Shown here one piece after another: positions 44,701 through 50,700 of a stretch of 64,000 bases of DNA. Source of the DNA: Escherichia coli (GTDB taxonomy: Bacteria; Pseudomonadota; Gammaproteobacteria; Enterobacterales; Enterobacteriaceae); assembly GCF_003790525.1 (NCBI RefSeq), contig NZ_CP033635.1, one strand, 5' to 3'. How positions within the stretch are numbered: the first letter of the stretch is position 1; the number at the start of each line of letters is the position of its first letter. A program made the position numbers.

Positions 44701-47700
44701 CGCAGGCACACTGATGGGCATTTTCAAGAGCTTTCGTCGCATGTCTGTCGTAAGCCCAGCCCGCAATGGCAATCAACGGTGCAGCCACTGCGGTGCCTAA
44801 TACCATTGCGCCGCCGGCCATTCCCATGCCCCCTGCAGCCAGTGAGCCCCCACCAATTGCCGCCATCGTCGCGTTATAAGCCGCGGCACCAGAAAGCGCT
44901 GCAATGGGTGTACCTGTAGAAGCCGCAGCAAATGCCATCACTCCGCTATACACAGCAAAACCCGCAGCAGCCCCGGAAACTCCGGCAGCAACGACCGTAC
45001 TGAGATATTCTGTCGCTGAAATGGCCAGGTTCTGAATCTTATTGATGTTATGTTGCGGGACACTCAGTTTCAGGTCTTTATTGCCCTCTTTTTCCAGACG
45101 CGCCAGGAGCTCAGCAGCAATCCTGTCGAACTCACTGAAATCTTTACCAATCTCAAGCTCTTTATTTCCGAGCGTTGTTAATTTTGATGATGTCTGAGCT
45201 TCAGCCTGCTCAAATTTTTCTTTATGCTCCTCGTAACGCTCTTTTGCTTTTTCGAGGATATCCTCTGCTTCTGACTTTTTTTGATATCCATCGTAAGCTT
45301 TTTTTCCGCCGAATGCCGCAGCGCCGGCAGCCACACCCAAAATAATAAAAGGTAACGCCATTCTTTTCCTCCTGTACAGATTGCTTTATCATCAGTCAAC
45401 TGAAATATTTCAGGAAACATTCTCAGCAGTAAGGTATTTTCCTAACATTGTTAACACGGCTTCTTTCAGCCATACTGGTTCAATAATTTCAACATTCGGT
45501 AGCCAGTATAAAATCAACGGGACAATTTGATTTTTATGTGCAGCCTTGCATGACAGCGTAATGCCATTGTCATGTTTGTGTAGCAATTGCTGGTAAGGAA
45601 GTAAGTCCCGTCGCAAAAAATAATGGGCGATATTACTGTAAATGAACAACACAACATCAAATGTTTTGTCGCTCACCCACGGGTCACATGACTCACTTAC
45701 CAGTGACTGGATTTCATCACTCTTTGCAAACTTTTCTTTTTTTATATCCAGCCATTTTATTTTAGCTAATGAAAACGACTTTAACTTGTTCTCTTCAGTA
45801 GCCAGCAAATACCATATACCTCTCTGATTAGTTAATTTATAGGGATGAACGATTCTGGTCTTACCGGCATATGCAATCTGGCAAACATTACTGTTGCAGA
45901 TCGCTTTTTCAAGAACATCAAGATATTTTCTTAAATCATCCCTGATGGTGTGCTCAGGGTTATGAAACTGAACACGAATATGCCTTTCGGTTGCCCTGTT
46001 TTCTAATTTCTGCCAGAAACCTTCATCCCGTTCAGGAAAAATCGCATCAGTATCCAGTAACCTGGCCAGAGATTTGTGCAGTGATTCTTTGCTCTGGTTT
46101 CCTGCTCTTGCCGAAATAAGCCGGTATTTTCCATCGCCACAGGCTTCAATAAAGGGAGAAAGCATATTCAGATCACGATATGCTGTTCGCTCAGTGATGT
46201 TGTATTTTTTCATCAAATTATAGCGACTGACCACGCCATAATTTTGTAATTCAACAAGGATATCAATCAAACGCTCCGCTGAGCGATTTCTCGTTGAGTC
46301 AACCATAAATCACTGCACCTGTAGTATTACTCTTGTGTAAGTGAATTATATAAATACTCCTGACATCATTTGTCAGTTCCACAAAACTACGCCCTCCGGC
46401 AACAGATTTTTATTTGATTATGTTCAAACTTTAAACCAGATGTCCGGGAGCCTCCTTCGTAATACGGTTTATTGTTTCCGGAAGGGCTGATATGACAAAA
46501 AACAACGTGTCCCAACAACAGTCCTTTTTCATTTAACAGACTGACAACCATACTGCGCGCTACCTGCCCCCTGTAAAAAATCAACGAAAGTAATATTTTT
46601 GCTCTATTTATATTTCATTCATCTGAAATTATTAGTTGCCAGAGGGAGAATATCATCAGGATATCTGTTATTGATTTGTCATACCTGCACTTTACTGTGC
46701 TCCAAAGCGCAGGCAGAAATGGCTGTCAGAAGTTATATGTTGCACCTAACATAAACTCGTTACTTCTGACATCAACAGAGGATTTATATTTAGCACCATC
46801 CTCATCTTTATAAGTCAGAGTGGAATCCCCTGCATCCAGATACCGGTAGCTGAGGTCAAGGCTGAAATCCTGCGTCACATCGTATTTAACACCGGCACCC
46901 AGGCTCCATGCCAGGTTGTTTTCGTATTTTGACGCTGAAGCTGAATAAACTTCACTGCCTGCCGGGCTGTTATCGGTATATATGTACGAAGTTTTATGAT
47001 GAACCCGTGCATAACCCAGACCAGCAGATATCCATGGCGTGAATGCACTGCTGTTTCTGAAATCATAATACGCATTCAGCATCAGCGTGTTTACACTGAG
47101 CTTGTTCTGTGCATCATCGAACTCGGCACCACCGGCACTTTCCCAATAACTCAGACGATATTTTGATTCAGCGTTACCGCGGCCATAAAACTCCACTTCA
47201 GTACGCACCGGCACATTGTAGTGCTGATAAAAATCGTATCCCACCGCAAGGCCTGCGCCAAAAACCGTATCACTTTTGTCACTGCCTTTGTATTTATCCG
47301 CCCATGCCCCTTCACCATCAACGAAACGTTGCTCTGAAAGTGACATAACAGAAACACCGGCTTTACCGGTCACATAAAAGCCAGTTTTGTTCTCATCAGC
47401 CAGAGTCTGGGCCGAAAACATGCCTGCCATTGCAAGTGTTGAAACAGCAATAACCTTTTTCATTTCAATCATCTCCGTTGGTTCTTACCCCACCCGATAA
47501 AGAAGGTTGCTCATTTTAAAACCATGCAAAAGACAAGGTAAAAAGAGAAAATTCGATCGAATCGATCGACAAAATCGATCATGAATGATGAAGATTTCTT
47601 ATCGAAGACATGAAAATGATAAGGAATGGTTTAAGAGGTAATTGCAACGGCATGGAAGTATTGAGACCAGAACAGCACGAGATAAAGCGGCTGAACGTCA

Positions 47701-50700
47701 GATGAGCCACATGGACGTAACTCAGTGCAGGCAGCGTATATCCATAAAGCGGAGCATCTGGATGAGCGCAAGCTGATGCTGCAGTGGTGGGCAGATTTTC
47801 TGGATGCCAATCGGGAGAGAGCGATTACGCCGTTTGACTATGCGAAGATCAATCGGGGTAATGGAGAGTGAGTTGTTTATCAAATTTGCTAAATTAAAAC
47901 TATTTAACCTGCCTTATAGGGACGATTGGTTGGCTATTTCACTAGAAGTAATGTAGATAACAGAAGCCTGGTCTATCATTTTGATAGACCAGGTCAAGAT
48001 TAATAGAATTAGATTTTTTATTGGCGTGTTGAATAAATTTTAAAGGGTCCTAATAAGTTTGTAGGATTTAATTGAAAACAGTAAGGGAAATACTTAACAT
48101 ATAACTTCACGCTCTTCTATTAAATCAAAAACATTATTCGTAGTGTAATGTTCCCATCTTTTATTATATCCCTCTTTCGACAAAATTGAGACATCATCCG
48201 TTCCTTCTCCCTCATCTAAACCATGCATGAAACAAACTCCAGCAACATTAGAAAGAACATATCTATTATGCAGACATTCATTACCCTCGCGAGAAGTTAA
48301 AGACTTAAATGTTACTGATAATTTAAAATCGTCTGGAAAGACAAGGTTTTCGCGGTTCAACTTATTAGCCAAATAATTCACCGTTGGGGAGTTTTCTTTA
48401 CTCCCATCAAATATAACATCTATCTTTAAATTTTTTTTATAAGAGTTATTAGCACTAACGCTAAGTAATGAAATAAATACATTCCACCATCTTTGTTTGT
48501 CACTAAAGTATGGGTCAACTATAATAATATGCTCTGATGTTTTTAATAAGCGTGAGATTATAGATATCATATCCTCAGCAATTCTAGCAACAATTTTTTG
48601 CCGAGCATAATTTAACCCAAAGAAATCATCTATATTAGTTACATCAAGGTTATCACAAGGAGTAGAACTCACTACATGATCAAATTGTTCAATTCGATTT
48701 ACAGCAGAGATGTTATCTGACCATGACATGTCACCAACATAATCATAAACCCTACTAACCTTATTATTTTTCAAAAAAATAATAAGGTCCTCTAATCGTT
48801 TTTTTTGAAGTTCACTATGATTAGCATTTAATAGCCCAAGCAATTGTTTTTTATTTCTCTTCAGCTTTGGTAATTCACTATAGAGAAAGTTACCGCCCGT
48901 AGAAAATCCTTTTATGAAGTCACGATAATTTCTCCGATCAATTGCGATCTCAAACAAAGCCTCTGGTGAAATGGCGCATTCGTAGAACATTAAAAAAGCT
49001 CTCCCCTTCTTTCTTCGAAGAAACCTTTGGGCCATTTTTGTTTGAAGTCACCATCATCAGTAATATCTATTTTCCTAGTAACAGTCGAACCATTATTATC
49101 CTCGAAAACGATCACTGATATAAAATCAGGTTTTACTGGGTAATTTGATTCAGGTAATTCATTGTCCGTTGTTTGTCTAATTCTTTTTAAAATTCGAAGC
49201 AAAATGTGCTCACTATGTGTTTCGACTAAAAACATAGGTCTTTTAACATCAAGGGGATATTGGGTAAACAGATCACCTACAGCGAGTTGTAAAGCGGGAT
49301 GAATATGTAGCTCAGGCTGCTCTATAGCAATTAATCCATCCTGAACTATATTGGCTGCAATAATAAGAGGTGCTATCTGAGTTAATCCGACACCGACTTG
49401 ATTTGGAAATAACATTTGGCTTGAATCTATTTTACAGAAGTAAACATTATCTTTCAGACCTAAAAGTTGAGGGGAGGTTTTTATATCAAATTCTCCTCCA
49501 CTAAATATATTATAATTAGTGTTTAGTTTATCTCTATTGGAAAACCAATCACTTACTTTTTTAATCAAATCACTATCATTTTGTTGAGATAAACACAGCT
49601 TATCCCATGCTGATGTACCATCAAACCATCCATTTTGTTCTGGATAAGGATTTGGCGTAAATGAAGAATCAGGTATAATTCTTAACGGTCCAATAGATAC
49701 GCTAGCCTTTAAATAATTATTTAATTTATCTAACGGAGAAGTAAAAACTTGCGTTAGCACTCTGGTGATTATATCTCGATTAAAATACTCAACTGGCTCG
49801 GATATATCAAAAACTTTCAAATTTGTATCAACAGTTCTTCCCAGTTGAGGTAACGCACCAATTTTCGTCTTTAAAAAAACAGGAAACATTGGTTTTTCTT
49901 TATCTTCTTCAAATATATAATCAACAGTTTTTACTCGCTCTGTTGCACCACTTTTATTACGTTCTAAGCCAGGAATTAAGTCATTTAAAGATATTTCAAA
50001 TTCACTGGCAATCGTATCTAATCCTTCCTTATCAATAGATTCAAGCCATAAATTATAATCAATAGGAAGAAGCAACGGATGAGTAAAGTTCAATCTATTT
50101 ACTAAAGATGATTTAGTATACTCATCATTACTTAGCTCTCCAATAAATTCATTATTTATAGAAACAGCATAGTTCTTTATATATGCTGCTCTGTGCAATT
50201 GTGACCATGCGATTTTAAACTCTACATAAACCTTTTCAGTTTCATCTGCAATGTCTTTCATTTTTATAAAATGAATATCGAAAATATCACCAAGTTCTTC
50301 TAAATATGTTTTATATTCTACACCTATTGTTTGTTCAGGATCGAAACCGATACCAATAGTAATTACATTATTCAGATCCCCATTATGGACTAGAGATCTA
50401 AATCCATCTATGCGCCTGTTCCCCATAGCTTCTAAATATATAGGATCACACTGCTCACGGTCTAATATTTGTTGAAGATAAAATAATGCAATTAAAATAG
50501 TAGTCTTGCCCGCGCTGTTTGGCCCCAATAGTAATGTTACAGGTGCAAAATCAATTTCCTGCCGCTCTCTAACAGATCTGAAATTTTCAAGTACAAGTTT
50601 AGTTAATTTCATAATGAACCTTACATGAAATATTTATTCGATAGGTTTGATGCTAAAAGTTGAAGTTGCATTGCGCTTTTATCATAAATGCTTAGTCCTT

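What the first reader, a model, noticed from the sequence alone, without database searches (positions are those of the whole stretch)
47695..47871. Remnant of a second integrase marks an internal module junction
A 58-codon C-terminal fragment of a P4-family integrase, with its frame closed upstream by stops, lies between the outer-membrane-protein gene and the hsd operon. The island therefore looks like a composite of at least two ancestrally separate elements: a raf/WYL module and an R-M module.
Basis: partly seen in the sequence, partly recalled or inferred. Interest (0 to 1): 0.5.

Follow-up and report, generated by a model that had tools for sequence, protein, structure and literature searches.

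The report
Truncated integrase scar joining two islands
A dead 185-base tail of an integrase gene marks the spot where a restriction-modification defence island that normally sits at the leuX tRNA gene was fused into a tRNA-Phe genomic island of E. coli; the scar is real and its origin can be traced, but it is an ordinary by-product of island mosaicism.

Summary
Window 47687-47871 is the last 186 nt (codons 362-422 plus stop) of a 422-codon P4-type integrase gene. It carries a 1-nt deletion, and RefSeq already annotates it as a frameshifted, N-terminally truncated integrase pseudogene.

Its closest intact relatives sit next to tRNA-Leu (leuX), the anchor of E. coli defence hotspot #37. In Citrobacter koseri and Kosakonia cowanii a full-length copy at leuX is followed by the same genes as here: a 298-aa protein, a 540-aa ATPase, then hsdS, hsdM and hsdR. 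Collinearity with the window starts exactly at 47687.

So the remnant and the R-M module are one ancestral leuX-type island, fused behind a Tia/Hek-like outer-membrane-protein gene inside a tRNA-Phe island.

The same junction occurs in at least 844 of 5,426 complete E. coli genomes, at leuX, pheU and pheV, with different cargo downstream. It is therefore old and of single origin.

A mosaic pattern suggests that the conserved 3' end of the integrase gene acts as a homologous-recombination crossover zone for cargo exchange. Overall this is an ordinary kind of feature, with one modest new detail.

The parts
28718..28793 (+). tRNA-Phe (pheU in this genome), the attachment site of the whole composite island
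   Evidence: ARAGORN. The upstream flank is dsbD-dicD, which identifies pheU. A 99.97%-identical 35.3-kb island sits at pheV in strain H9Ecoli.
28970..30154 (+). Intact outer integrase (394 aa) of a different P4-type subfamily; it has no nucleotide similarity to the remnant
   Evidence: NCBIfam PRK09692 E = 3.4e-92. No BLASTN hit to the remnant. About 52% nt identity to the other integrases compared.
30304..37895 (+). raf-type sugar module: LacI-type regulator, alpha-galactosidase, MFS transporter, GH32 hydrolase, porin. A separate module, absent from related islands.
   Evidence: PGAP annotation of an identical genome. Absent from cq9, JNU and 52148. Followed by IS remnants at 38473-39110.
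40338..42011 (-). Phosphoethanolamine transferase gene, a recurrent companion of the OMP gene in these islands
   Evidence: PGAP annotation. Present in cq9, JNU, 317, 52148, 204 and NCTC9022.
42664..46306 (-). Block of WYL regulator (45410-46306), a 359-aa protein and a 523-aa protein. It occupies the slot that holds leoABC in other islands.
   Evidence: PADLOC hits: WYL, PDC-M09A (3.5e-22), PDC-M40B (1.3e-42). leoABC occupies the same slot in JNU and 52148.
46726..47472 (-). Tia/Hek-like outer-membrane-protein gene (PGAP start 47463), the last gene of the left-hand element
   Evidence: PGAP calls it 'outer membrane protein', and 'invasion outer membrane protein Tia' in relatives. NCBIfam adhesin Adr/OmpW-like. 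Alleles are only about 70-74% identical between island types.
47473..47686 (.). OMP upstream region that always accompanies the remnant; contains three GATC sites at 47555-47580. The left breakpoint of the integrase remnant is at its end (47686|47687).
   Evidence: The same sequence and the same breakpoint are present in every remnant copy examined (alignment A1). Identity between island types is 79-99%. It is the only cluster of 3 GATC within 30 nt in the 64-kb window.
47687..47871 (+). Integrase pseudogene: nt 1084-1269 (codons 362-422 plus stop) of a leuX-type P4-family integrase gene. It carries a 1-nt deletion after 47715 and a mosaic boundary at about 47735-47745.
   Evidence: 168/186 nt; 49/51 aa, E = 3e-34. 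PGAP pseudogene. Identity to leuX integrases is 43/55 in 47687-47740 against 125/131 in 47741-47871, Fisher p = 6.8e-4. GC is 0.53, between flanks of 0.38 and 0.31.
47872..48093 (.). Spacer after the integrase stop codon. Similarity to all integrase and remnant copies with other cargo ends at 47875-47879. A hairpin at 47967-47993 looks like the terminator of the convergent ATPase/298-aa genes.
   Evidence: matches end at query 126-130, i.e. 47875-47879. (12-bp stem followed by a T-rich tail on the - strand). Collinear with the same spacer behind the full-length integrase in Kosakonia (196/227) and C. koseri (179/229).
48094..50612 (-). Two-gene cassette: a 540-aa AAA15/21-type ATPase (48990-50612) and a 298-aa partner (48094-48990; the longest ORF runs to 49035). 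This is the variable slot between the integrase and hsdS.
   Evidence: PADLOC hits for the ATPase: PDC-M55A 1.4e-40, NsnB 3.2e-37, AriA 5.5e-22. The partner has no Pfam, NCBIfam or PADLOC family. The slot holds SIR2 in MS1266 and 317, and DUF4365...HNH-AAA in 52148.
50621..56871 (-). Type I (EcoAI-like, type IB) R-M operon: hsdS 50621-51763, hsdM 51760-53394, hsdR 53458-56871
   Evidence: NCBIfam. Identity is 95.8% to the leuX-located operon of MS1266, 98.9% to strain 317, and 92% to C. koseri and Kosakonia.
56951..57118 (.). Right-hand limit of the leuX-type module: homology to the different leuX islands ends within this interval, upstream of hsdR
   Evidence: Homology ends at 56951 (JNU), 56964 (C. 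koseri and Kosakonia) and 57118 (MS1266). A transposase remnant follows at 57479-57993.

Best explanation
Window 47687-47871 is a non-functional scar: the last 14% of the integrase gene that once headed a leuX-type (E. coli defence hotspot #37-type) island. That island consisted of the integrase, a variable defence slot, and a type IB hsdS-hsdM-hsdR operon.

Origin (inferred). A second P4-type island (integrase ... phosphoethanolamine transferase ... Tia/Hek-like OMP gene) came to lie immediately upstream. The most likely route is tandem integration at the same tRNA. A deletion then removed the internal att site and the first 1083 nt of the resident integrase gene. This welded the two islands into one unit that only the outer integrase can move.

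Single origin (shown). The event happened once. The OMP-upstream | integrase-nt-1084 junction is identical in all copies, and it has since spread to leuX, pheU and pheV islands.

What the remnant keeps. It retains the second conserved His and the catalytic Tyr codons. It lacks the arm-binding and central domains and the Arg-Lys-His-x-x-Arg part of the active site, and it is frameshifted. It cannot recombine DNA.

Recombination (supported, not proven). The conserved 3' end of the integrase gene, retained in the remnant, has served as a crossover zone for homologous recombination with intact integrase genes. That would explain why different cargo now follows the same remnant, and why the last ~130 nt of the window's copy look 'fresher' than its first 55 nt.
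For: Identity as an integrase tail:
- 168/186 nt identical to nt 1084-1269 of the leuX integrases.
- 49/51 aa identical to residues 372-422.
- The full-length relative carries PF13356, PF22022 and PF00589 (residues 205-384), so only the last ~23 residues of the catalytic domain are retained.
- PGAP annotates it as a pseudogene.

Intact counterparts:
- MS1266: leuX - integrase - SIR2 - hsdSMR, with hsdM-hsdR 95.8% identical to the window.
- C. koseri and Kosakonia: tRNA-Leu(CAA) - 422-aa integrase - 298-aa protein - 540-aa ATPase - hsdSMR, collinear with window 47687-51358 and 51759-56964, starting exactly at integrase nt 1084.

Fusion model:
- Strain 317 at leuX equals the MS1266 island with integrase nt 1-1083 replaced by [another integrase - AAA - ept - tia]. 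Remnant plus SIR2 is 94.5% identical from nt 1084 on.

Single origin and age:
- The same breakpoint and the same upstream sequence occur in all seven remnant loci, including copies only 74-81% identical.
- At least 844 of 5,426 genomes carry the junction.
- The 1-nt deletion is shared by the window, cq9, JNU, 317, 52148 and ATCC 11775, and is absent from NCTC9022.

No selection for coding:
- Independent frameshifts, an internal stop and deletions occur in different copies.

Composite moves as one unit:
- The 35.3-kb island is 99.97% identical at pheU (window) and pheV (H9Ecoli), inserted precisely at the tRNA 3' end, with native flanks on each side.

Recombination:
- JNU and 317 have 186/186-identical remnants but unrelated downstream DNA.
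- 204 and NCTC9022 have 99% identical OMP genes, but their remnants differ in the 3' half.
- Window 5' versus 3' asymmetry: 43/55 against 125/131, p = 6.8e-4.
- Outer integrases at leuX and at tRNA-Phe are about 66% identical overall, yet 96-99% identical over the last ~130-150 nt and on into the cargo. The crossover lies at about nt 1120-1140.

Composition:
- A GC spike of 0.53 between flanks of 0.38 and 0.31.

Literature:
- leuX is hotspot #37, anchored by an integrase and rich in type I R-M (PMC10121019, PMC12707154).
- GI-pheV is modular (PMC11537424).
Against: - No copy of the tRNA-Leu or tRNA-Phe 3' end (att site) survives at or near the junction. Tandem site-specific integration followed by deletion is therefore inferred, not shown. 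An illegitimate recombination that joined the two elements directly would leave the same scar.
- The 69 nt at 47618-47686, between the end of OMP-paralogue homology and the remnant, have no identified origin.
- The 5'/3' divergence asymmetry rests on only 186 nt. It could partly reflect local mutation near the old breakpoint.
- No E. coli genome in the collection showed a full-length integrase followed by this particular cassette; that arrangement was found only in other genera.
- Nothing here measures expression, excision or recombination.
Confidence: 0.85

Rival explanations
1. The second island integrated in situ at tRNA-Phe. On this view the remnant is the decayed integrase of a Phe-specific island that arrived at this very locus, not a leuX-type element.
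For: Two P4-type integrase sequences in the same orientation behind one tRNA gene is the classical picture of tandem accretion. The remnant is about 78% identical to pheV/pheU-type integrases.
Against: - It is much closer to leuX integrases: 90% overall and 95% over the last 131 nt.
- Its cargo is collinear with leuX islands of three genera.
- The identical junction is present at leuX itself in strains 317 and 204.
- No internal tRNA-Phe att copy exists.
Confidence: 0.07
2. The junction arose repeatedly. On this view some element or process truncates P4-type integrase genes at nt 1083/1084, so the different cargo types behind the remnant reflect independent truncations rather than later recombination.
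For: Each cargo type behind a remnant has a counterpart behind a full-length integrase: 317 with MS1266, 52148 with VTB96937v, and the window with C. koseri and Kosakonia.
Against: - All remnants share the same 214-nt upstream sequence.
- They also share derived substitutions in the first 55 nt that no full-length integrase carries, and most share the same 1-nt deletion.
- No transposon end or target duplication is evident at 47686|47687.
Confidence: 0.05
3. The remnant is kept because it does something: it encodes a 48-aa peptide (GTG 47725-47871), or it acts as a regulatory element for the divergent OMP gene.
For: - It persists in at least 844 genomes.
- It is better conserved than the adjacent OMP gene between island types.
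- An ORF of 48 codons exists.
Against: - The frame is broken differently in different copies: a 1-nt deletion; a deletion plus compensating insertion; an internal stop; 12-nt and 9-nt deletions; and truncation at 47748 in ATCC 11775.
- No Rfam family was found.
- No promoter-like site faces the ORF within the remnant.
- The OMP-paralogue upstream homology ends at about 47617-47622, before the remnant.
Confidence: 0.03
4. Chance resemblance: the ORF is not integrase-derived at all.
For: It is short (58 codons), and the Pfam-type evidence alone is weak (NCBIfam E = 1.2e-4).
Against: BLASTN E = 3e-70 and BLASTP E = 3e-34 to full-length integrases. It is collinear with integrase plus cargo in other genera.
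Confidence: 0.01

Closest known systems
E. coli defence hotspot #37: the leuX-anchored, integrase-headed defence island (Hochhauser et al. 2023, PMC10121019; reviewed in PMC12707154)
   Same: The remnant is the 3' end of this class of integrase. The cargo behind it (type IB R-M with an embedded ATPase cassette) is of the kind listed for hotspot #37. It is 92-96% identical to operons that sit at leuX behind an intact integrase.
   Different: Here the element is not at leuX. Its integrase is truncated to 61 codons, and it is embedded behind an OMP gene inside a tRNA-Phe island. It can no longer integrate or excise on its own.
GI-pheV, the modular P4-integrase genomic island of E. coli (Nhu et al. 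2024, PMC11537424)
   Same: It is a tRNA-Phe island headed by a P4-type integrase and built of modules that are gained, lost and recombined. The tia/pap-containing intP4.3 type resembles the ATCC 11775 relative.
   Different: The parts of that paper read here (outline and keyword passages) describe modules separated by IS elements and mention neither 'restriction' nor 'pseudogene'. Whether its figures or supplements show an internal integrase remnant was not checked. The window copy sits at pheU and has a different outer integrase subfamily.
Composite or tandem genomic islands formed by accretion at one attachment site (for example CGI48 of Shewanella putrefaciens, PMC8978831, seen)
   Same: Two integrase-bearing elements lie in series behind one tRNA gene and behave as one island.
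   Different: In separable composites the internal att site and second integrase are intact. Here both were destroyed, so the fusion is irreversible, and the fused junction has itself spread to other tRNA sites.
Defence-cargo exchange by homologous recombination between conserved flanks (my recollection of the phage-defence-element and core-hotspot literature; only the abstract of PMC10250203, on Pseudomonas core defence hotspots, was seen, and it does not describe this mechanism)
   Same: Variable defence cassettes sit between conserved arms: here the integrase 3' end and hsdM. Identical arms are followed by unrelated cargo.
   Different: The left arm here is a fragment of a mobile-element gene, not a core gene. 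The recombination is inferred from mosaic patterns only.

Membership tests
P4-family (arm-type) tyrosine integrase, as a functional member | N-terminal arm-type DNA-binding domain (PF13356) and central domain (PF22022) | tested here: not met
   The full-length relative has them at residues 3-87 and 99-193. The remnant starts at codon 362, and the sequence upstream of 47687 shows no integrase homology.
P4-family (arm-type) tyrosine integrase, as a functional member | Complete catalytic domain (PF00589) with the Arg / Lys / His-x-x-Arg / His / Tyr residues in one open frame | tested here: not met
   Only the last ~23 residues of PF00589 (which spans 205-384 in the relative) are present. The 'SH' and 'AAY' codons are retained but separated by a frameshift after 47715. 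The assignment of catalytic residues rests on general knowledge of tyrosine recombinases.
P4-family integrase, as a derived pseudogene | Significant sequence similarity to full-length members over the retained part | tested here: met
   168/186 nt, E = 3e-70. 49/51 aa, E = 3e-34. PRK09692 E = 1.2e-4.
Hotspot #37 / leuX defence island | Located next to tRNA-Leu (leuX) between ahr/yjgR and the downstream core genes | tested here: not met
   The window's island is at tRNA-Phe (pheU). No leuX 3'-end sequence is present in the window.
Hotspot #37 / leuX defence island | Headed by the leuX-type integrase, with defence cargo starting right after its stop codon | tested here: met
   The remnant is 95% identical to leuX integrases over its last 131 nt. 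The cargo is collinear with leuX islands of MS1266, C. koseri and Kosakonia.
Composite island formed by tandem accretion | Each component exists on its own elsewhere | tested here: met
   The right component occurs alone at leuX. The left-type block (integrase-AAA-ept-OMP paralogue) occurs without an integrase remnant in cq9, at L001 2263-9985.
Composite island formed by tandem accretion | Internal att site (a direct repeat of the tRNA 3' end) between the components | tested here: not met
   No second copy of the last 18-23 nt of tRNA-Phe or tRNA-Leu was found in the window or in the 43-kb locus L005, allowing up to 2-3 mismatches. It is presumed deleted together with integrase nt 1-1083.
Type I R-M, EcoAI (type IB) family (the cargo) | hsdR, hsdM and hsdS genes matching the family models | tested here: inconclusive
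   HsdR hits PRK11448 (1.6e-99) and restrict_EcoAI (3.4e-68), but both scores are below NCBIfam's curated cut-offs. HsdM and HsdS hit hsdM/PRK09737 models, also below cut-off. Pfam domain sets of the orthologues are typical of the family.

The most novel reading that the evidence does not exclude
The conserved last ~130-190 nt of P4-type integrase genes may be the left homology arm of a cassette-exchange system. On this reading, cargo together with the integrase 3' end is swapped by homologous recombination between islands at leuX, pheU and pheV.

A truncated integrase tail such as 47687-47871 would still be a competent arm. It would act as a portable docking site that imports leuX hotspot #37 defence cargo into virulence or metabolic islands at other tRNA genes, with hsdM as a frequent right arm. 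This would explain part of the integrase-independent turnover of hotspot #37 that Hochhauser et al. could not account for.
Probability: 0.45. Interest if true: 0.45.

Novelty: new member of a known kind. Interest (0 to 1): 0.27.

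Why it matters
The remnant shows how this island was assembled. A defence island of the leuX hotspot type was welded behind a Tia/Hek-like adhesin module, and the composite now travels as one unit between pheU and pheV.

For annotation, the R-M region here should be read as hotspot #37 cargo in a new place.

More generally, the mosaic patterns suggest a testable route by which defence cassettes move between tRNA-associated islands without site-specific recombination: crossovers in the conserved 3' end of integrase genes. This bears on an open point about how hotspot #37 turns over.

The scar itself has no evident function, and integrase pseudogenes in mosaic islands are commonplace.

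Tried and rejected
- Further integrase homology upstream of 47687: the MAFFT alignment hinted at 'ATTGAG', but identity over the 47 nt upstream is about 36%, i.e. background. Rejected.
- att-site remnants (last 18-23 nt of tRNA-Phe and tRNA-Leu, up to 2-3 mismatches) in the window and in L005: only the tRNA-Phe gene itself was found.
- Rfam scan of 46500-48500 at E <= 1: nothing.
- Exact-match scans of 100,044 species-representative genomes for the junction 28-mer and for the stop-codon-plus-spacer 22-mer: both returned 0 hits. These say little, because exact matching fails at 83-90% identity and the E. coli representative lacks the island.
- Literature search linking tia/hek to GATC or Dam phase variation: the hits were about HEK-293 cells and irrelevant.
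- I first took the locus to be pheV because identical islands are at pheV in other strains. The flanks show the window is at pheU.
- I asked whether strain 52148's outer integrase region matches the window, so as to delimit the raf insertion precisely. It does not; only TPR-ept (39166-42261) is shared.
- PADLOC, Pfam and NCBIfam gave no family for the 298/313-aa protein.

Full report
**1. What is at the coordinates**

The tail reads VQAAYIHKAEHLDERKLMLQWWADFLDANRERAITPFDYAKINRGNGE. It matches residues 372-422 of a 422-aa integrase from E. coli MS1266 at 49/51 identities, E = 3e-34.

At the DNA level, window 47687-47871 aligns with nt 1084-1269 of the 1269-nt gene: 168/186 identities with a single 1-nt gap after 47715, E = 3e-70. 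It begins in another frame (AERQMSHMD) and switches frame at the deletion.

The full-length relative has the P4-type architecture: PF13356 at residues 3-87, PF22022 at 99-193, and PF00589 at 205-384. The remnant keeps only the last ~23 residues of the catalytic domain plus the C-terminal tail. From general knowledge of tyrosine recombinases, this includes the 'SH' histidine and the 'AAY' tyrosine. It does not include the Arg, Lys or His-x-x-Arg residues.

PGAP annotates exactly 47687-47871 as 'integrase; frameshifted; incomplete; missing N-terminus' in identical RefSeq genomes.

**2. Where the window is**

The window is E. coli chromosome. The island follows tRNA-Phe at 28718-28793.

The upstream flank is dsbD-dicD, so this is pheU. 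A 99.97%-identical copy of 35.3 kb (28670-64000) sits at pheV, behind speC-yqgA, in strain H9Ecoli. In both cases the native flanks run up to the tRNA and the island sequence is identical immediately after its 3' end. The whole composite, scar included, has therefore been placed as one unit at either tRNA-Phe gene.

Gene order from the PGAP annotation of the identical genome (window = L005 + 26982) is:
- outer integrase, 28970-30154
- raf-type sugar genes, 30304-37895
- IS remnants, 38473-39110
- TPR protein
- phosphoethanolamine transferase, 40338-42011
- a 523-aa / 359-aa / WYL-regulator block, 42664-46306
- OMP gene, 46726-47472
- the remnant
- 298-aa gene, 48094-48990
- 540-aa ATPase, 48990-50612
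- hsdS, hsdM and hsdR, 50621-56871
- transposase remnant, then further genes

**3. The remnant belongs with the R-M module: intact counterparts at leuX**

The closest full-length genes lie next to tRNA-Leu (leuX):
- In VTB96937v the integrase is followed by a phosphorothioate-dependent nuclease and a type I R-M.
- In MS1266 it is followed by SIR2-hsdS-hsdM-hsdR. The hsdM-hsdR stretch (window 51760-57118) is 95.8% identical to the window.

The decisive case came from the 298-aa protein, whose small family is confined to Enterobacteriaceae. In Citrobacter koseri and Kosakonia cowanii the order is lptFG-yjgR-ahr, tRNA-Leu(CAA), a full-length 422-aa integrase (frameshifted in the Kosakonia records), then the 298-aa protein, the 540-aa ATPase, hsdS, hsdM and hsdR.

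The window is collinear with these loci from 47687 to 51358 (83-90% identity) and from 51759 to 56964 (92%). Homology starts exactly at integrase nt 1084. Even the spacer after the stop codon is shared: 196/227 with Kosakonia.

leuX is the anchor of E. coli defence 'hotspot #37', which is headed by a site-specific integrase and rich in type I R-M (PMC10121019 and PMC12707154). HsdR here is EcoAI-like, i.e. type IB.

So 47687 to about 56964-57118 is a leuX/hotspot #37-type island minus the first 1083 nt of its integrase gene.

**4. How the fusion arose**

Strain 317 shows the arrangement at leuX itself: tRNA-Leu, another (outer) integrase, an AAA protein, ept, tia, the remnant, SIR2 and hsdSMR. 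Against MS1266, the remnant plus SIR2 is 94.5% identical from nt 1084 onward, and hsdM-hsdR is 96% identical. The outer integrase is only about 74% identical to the resident type.

The simplest history has two steps. A second island integrated at the same tRNA, upstream of the resident defence island. A deletion then ran from the OMP upstream region through the internal att site to integrase nt 1083.

This step is inferred. No tRNA-Leu or tRNA-Phe 3'-end copy survives in the window or in L005. The 69 nt at 47618-47686 have no identified source.

**5. The junction is old, single-origin and widespread**

All remnant loci examined share the same 214-nt OMP-upstream sequence and the same breakpoint. 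These are the window, cq9, JNU, 317, 52148, 204, NCTC9022 and ATCC 11775. They include copies only 74-81% identical overall.

Most share the same 1-nt deletion; NCTC9022 does not.

At least 844 of 5,426 complete E. coli genomes have a match covering 80% or more of 47600-47880. Such a match must span the breakpoint, because full-length genes can cover only 67% of that query. Of these, 252 have this particular cargo, and 139 have the whole 25-kb arrangement 28700-53699.

Different copies carry different disabling lesions: a frameshift, a frameshift plus compensating insertion, an internal stop, 12-nt and 9-nt deletions, and truncation at 47748 next to a pap operon. There is therefore no selection for a product. 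No Rfam family matches 46.5-48.5 kb.

**6. What lies on either side: modules**

Downstream of the remnant the cargo differs between genomes:
- this ATPase cassette plus R-M (window, cq9, JNU)
- SIR2 plus R-M (317)
- DUF4365 ... HNH-AAA plus R-M (52148)
- dptFGH (204)
- TerB/ATPase/helicase (NCTC9022)
- pap (ATCC 11775)

 Similarity to all copies with other cargo stops at 47875-47879, which is 4-8 nt after the stop codon.

Upstream, the 'raf/WYL module' is not one unit:
- cq9 shares 40336-48506 and 49754-64000 with the window, but has another integrase and no raf.
- JNU and 52148 have leoABC where the window has the WYL block.
- The OMP alleles fall into three groups only about 70-74% identical, although the intergenic segment is 79-99% identical.

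Composition agrees with a junction. GC is 0.45 in the OMP gene, 0.38 in its upstream region, 0.53 in the remnant (matching 0.53 for the same part of the intact gene), 0.31 in the spacer, 0.33-0.34 in the 298-aa, ATPase and hsdS genes, and 0.51 in hsdM and hsdR.

**7. Evidence that the integrase 3' end is a recombination zone**

(a) JNU and 317 have 186/186-identical remnants and 98.6%-identical upstream spacers, but unrelated DNA from a few bases after the stop codon.

(b) Strains 204 and NCTC9022 have 99.2%-identical OMP genes, but their remnants are only 68% identical. The NCTC9022 3' half resembles Phe-type integrases instead: 55/71.

(c) The window remnant is 43/55 identical to leuX integrases in 47687-47740 but 125/131 in 47741-47871 (Fisher p = 6.8e-4). 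The substitutions that no intact gene shares are concentrated in the first 55 nt. Uniform neutral decay would not give this pattern. A later crossover with an intact gene would.

(d) Independently of the remnant, outer integrases at leuX (317, 204) and at tRNA-Phe (cq9, NCTC9022) are about 66% identical overall. Over the last ~130-150 nt they are 96-99% identical, and that identity continues into the downstream cargo. The switch lies at about nt 1120-1140, in the conserved stretch around the Tyr codon. This is the same zone as the boundary in the window's remnant.

I therefore think cargo plus the integrase 3' end is exchanged by homologous recombination, and that the remnant remains a usable partner. 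This is supported by mosaic patterns in a small sample. It has not been tested at population scale or experimentally.

**8. Comparison with what is known, and verdict**

Mosaic, modular tRNA-Phe islands headed by P4-type integrases are well described (PMC11537424). So is the leuX hotspot (PMC10121019). The remnant itself is already annotated as a pseudogene.

Three things are added here: its precise origin (codons 362-422 of a leuX-type integrase); the demonstration that it and the R-M cassette are one displaced hotspot #37-type island; and the suggestion that integrase 3' ends serve as homology arms.

It is not a functional member of the integrase family, because defining features were tested and not met. 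It is a derived pseudogene of that family.

Novelty: a new member of a known kind. Interest: low to moderate.

Noticed in passing
window 28670-64000, compared with L005 (H9Ecoli): The same composite island (99.97% identical over 35.3 kb) sits at pheU in the window's genome and at pheV in other strains. In both it is inserted exactly at the tRNA 3' end with native flanks. This suggests recent integrase-mediated placement of the whole composite at either identical tRNA-Phe gene.
   Followed up: partly
window 47553-47580: Three GATC (Dam) sites lie within 27 nt, inside a near-palindrome TCGATCGAATCGATCGA, about 85-105 nt upstream of the OMP start codon. This is the only such cluster in the 64-kb window. 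It is conserved in every OMP-upstream copy, even at 74% overall identity. It resembles the clustered GATC sites of Dam-dependent phase-variable promoters. One literature search found nothing on this.
   Followed up: partly
window 48094-50612 (- strand): A two-gene cassette sits between the integrase tail and hsdS. One gene encodes a 540-aa AAA15/21 ATPase with PADLOC hits to PDC-M55A, NsnB and AriA. Its stop overlaps the start of a 298-aa partner gene. The partner has no Pfam, NCBIfam or PADLOC family, and only about 17 clusters of homologues, all in Enterobacteriaceae. This is a candidate uncharacterised defence pair embedded in a type IB R-M locus.
   Followed up: partly
window 42664-46306 (- strand): A block of WYL-domain regulator, 359-aa protein (PDC-M09A-like) and 523-aa protein (PDC-M40B-like; PGAP mislabels it 'cobalamin adenosyltransferase') occupies exactly the slot between ept and the OMP gene. 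Related islands hold the dynamin-like leoABC genes in that slot.
   Followed up: partly
window 46726-47686, compared with L004, L006, L008-L010: The Tia/Hek-like OMP alleles are only about 70-74% identical between island types. The adjacent non-coding spacer and the dead integrase tail are 79-99% identical. Either the OMP is under strong diversifying selection, or the spacer-plus-remnant has been spread among old OMP alleles by recombination.
   Followed up: partly
window 47618-47686: These 69 nt lie between the point where homology to OMP paralogues ends and the integrase breakpoint. They match nothing identified here. They may be a further fragment of whatever lay between the two islands.
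   Followed up: no
L008:1107-2769 compared with L001:2263-3925 (also L010 compared with L004): Full-length integrases at leuX and at tRNA-Phe are about 66% identical overall. They become 96-99% identical over the last ~130-150 nt, and that identity continues into the downstream AAA-ept-tia cargo. They appear to be hybrid genes whose 3' ends travel with the cargo.
   Followed up: partly
window 57479-64000 and beyond (L005:30497-39698): The distal part of the island holds a transposase remnant, a MazG-like gene, an XRE/peptidase-type regulator (PD-Lambda-2_B-like, 8.7e-30), a 314-aa protein, thymidylate synthase, a dead IS3 and a dGTPase-family gene. Just outside the window come a papA fragment with papB/papI, then ISCR2-floR in H9Ecoli. 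The pap fragment suggests that the R-M and nucleotide-metabolism genes replaced most of a pap operon like the one in ATCC 11775.
   Followed up: no
window 30304-39165: The raf-type sugar cluster (regulator, alpha-galactosidase, MFS transporter, GH32 hydrolase, porin) is bounded distally by IS fragments at 38473-39110. It is absent from all related islands examined, so it looks like a separate IS-associated insertion.
   Followed up: partly
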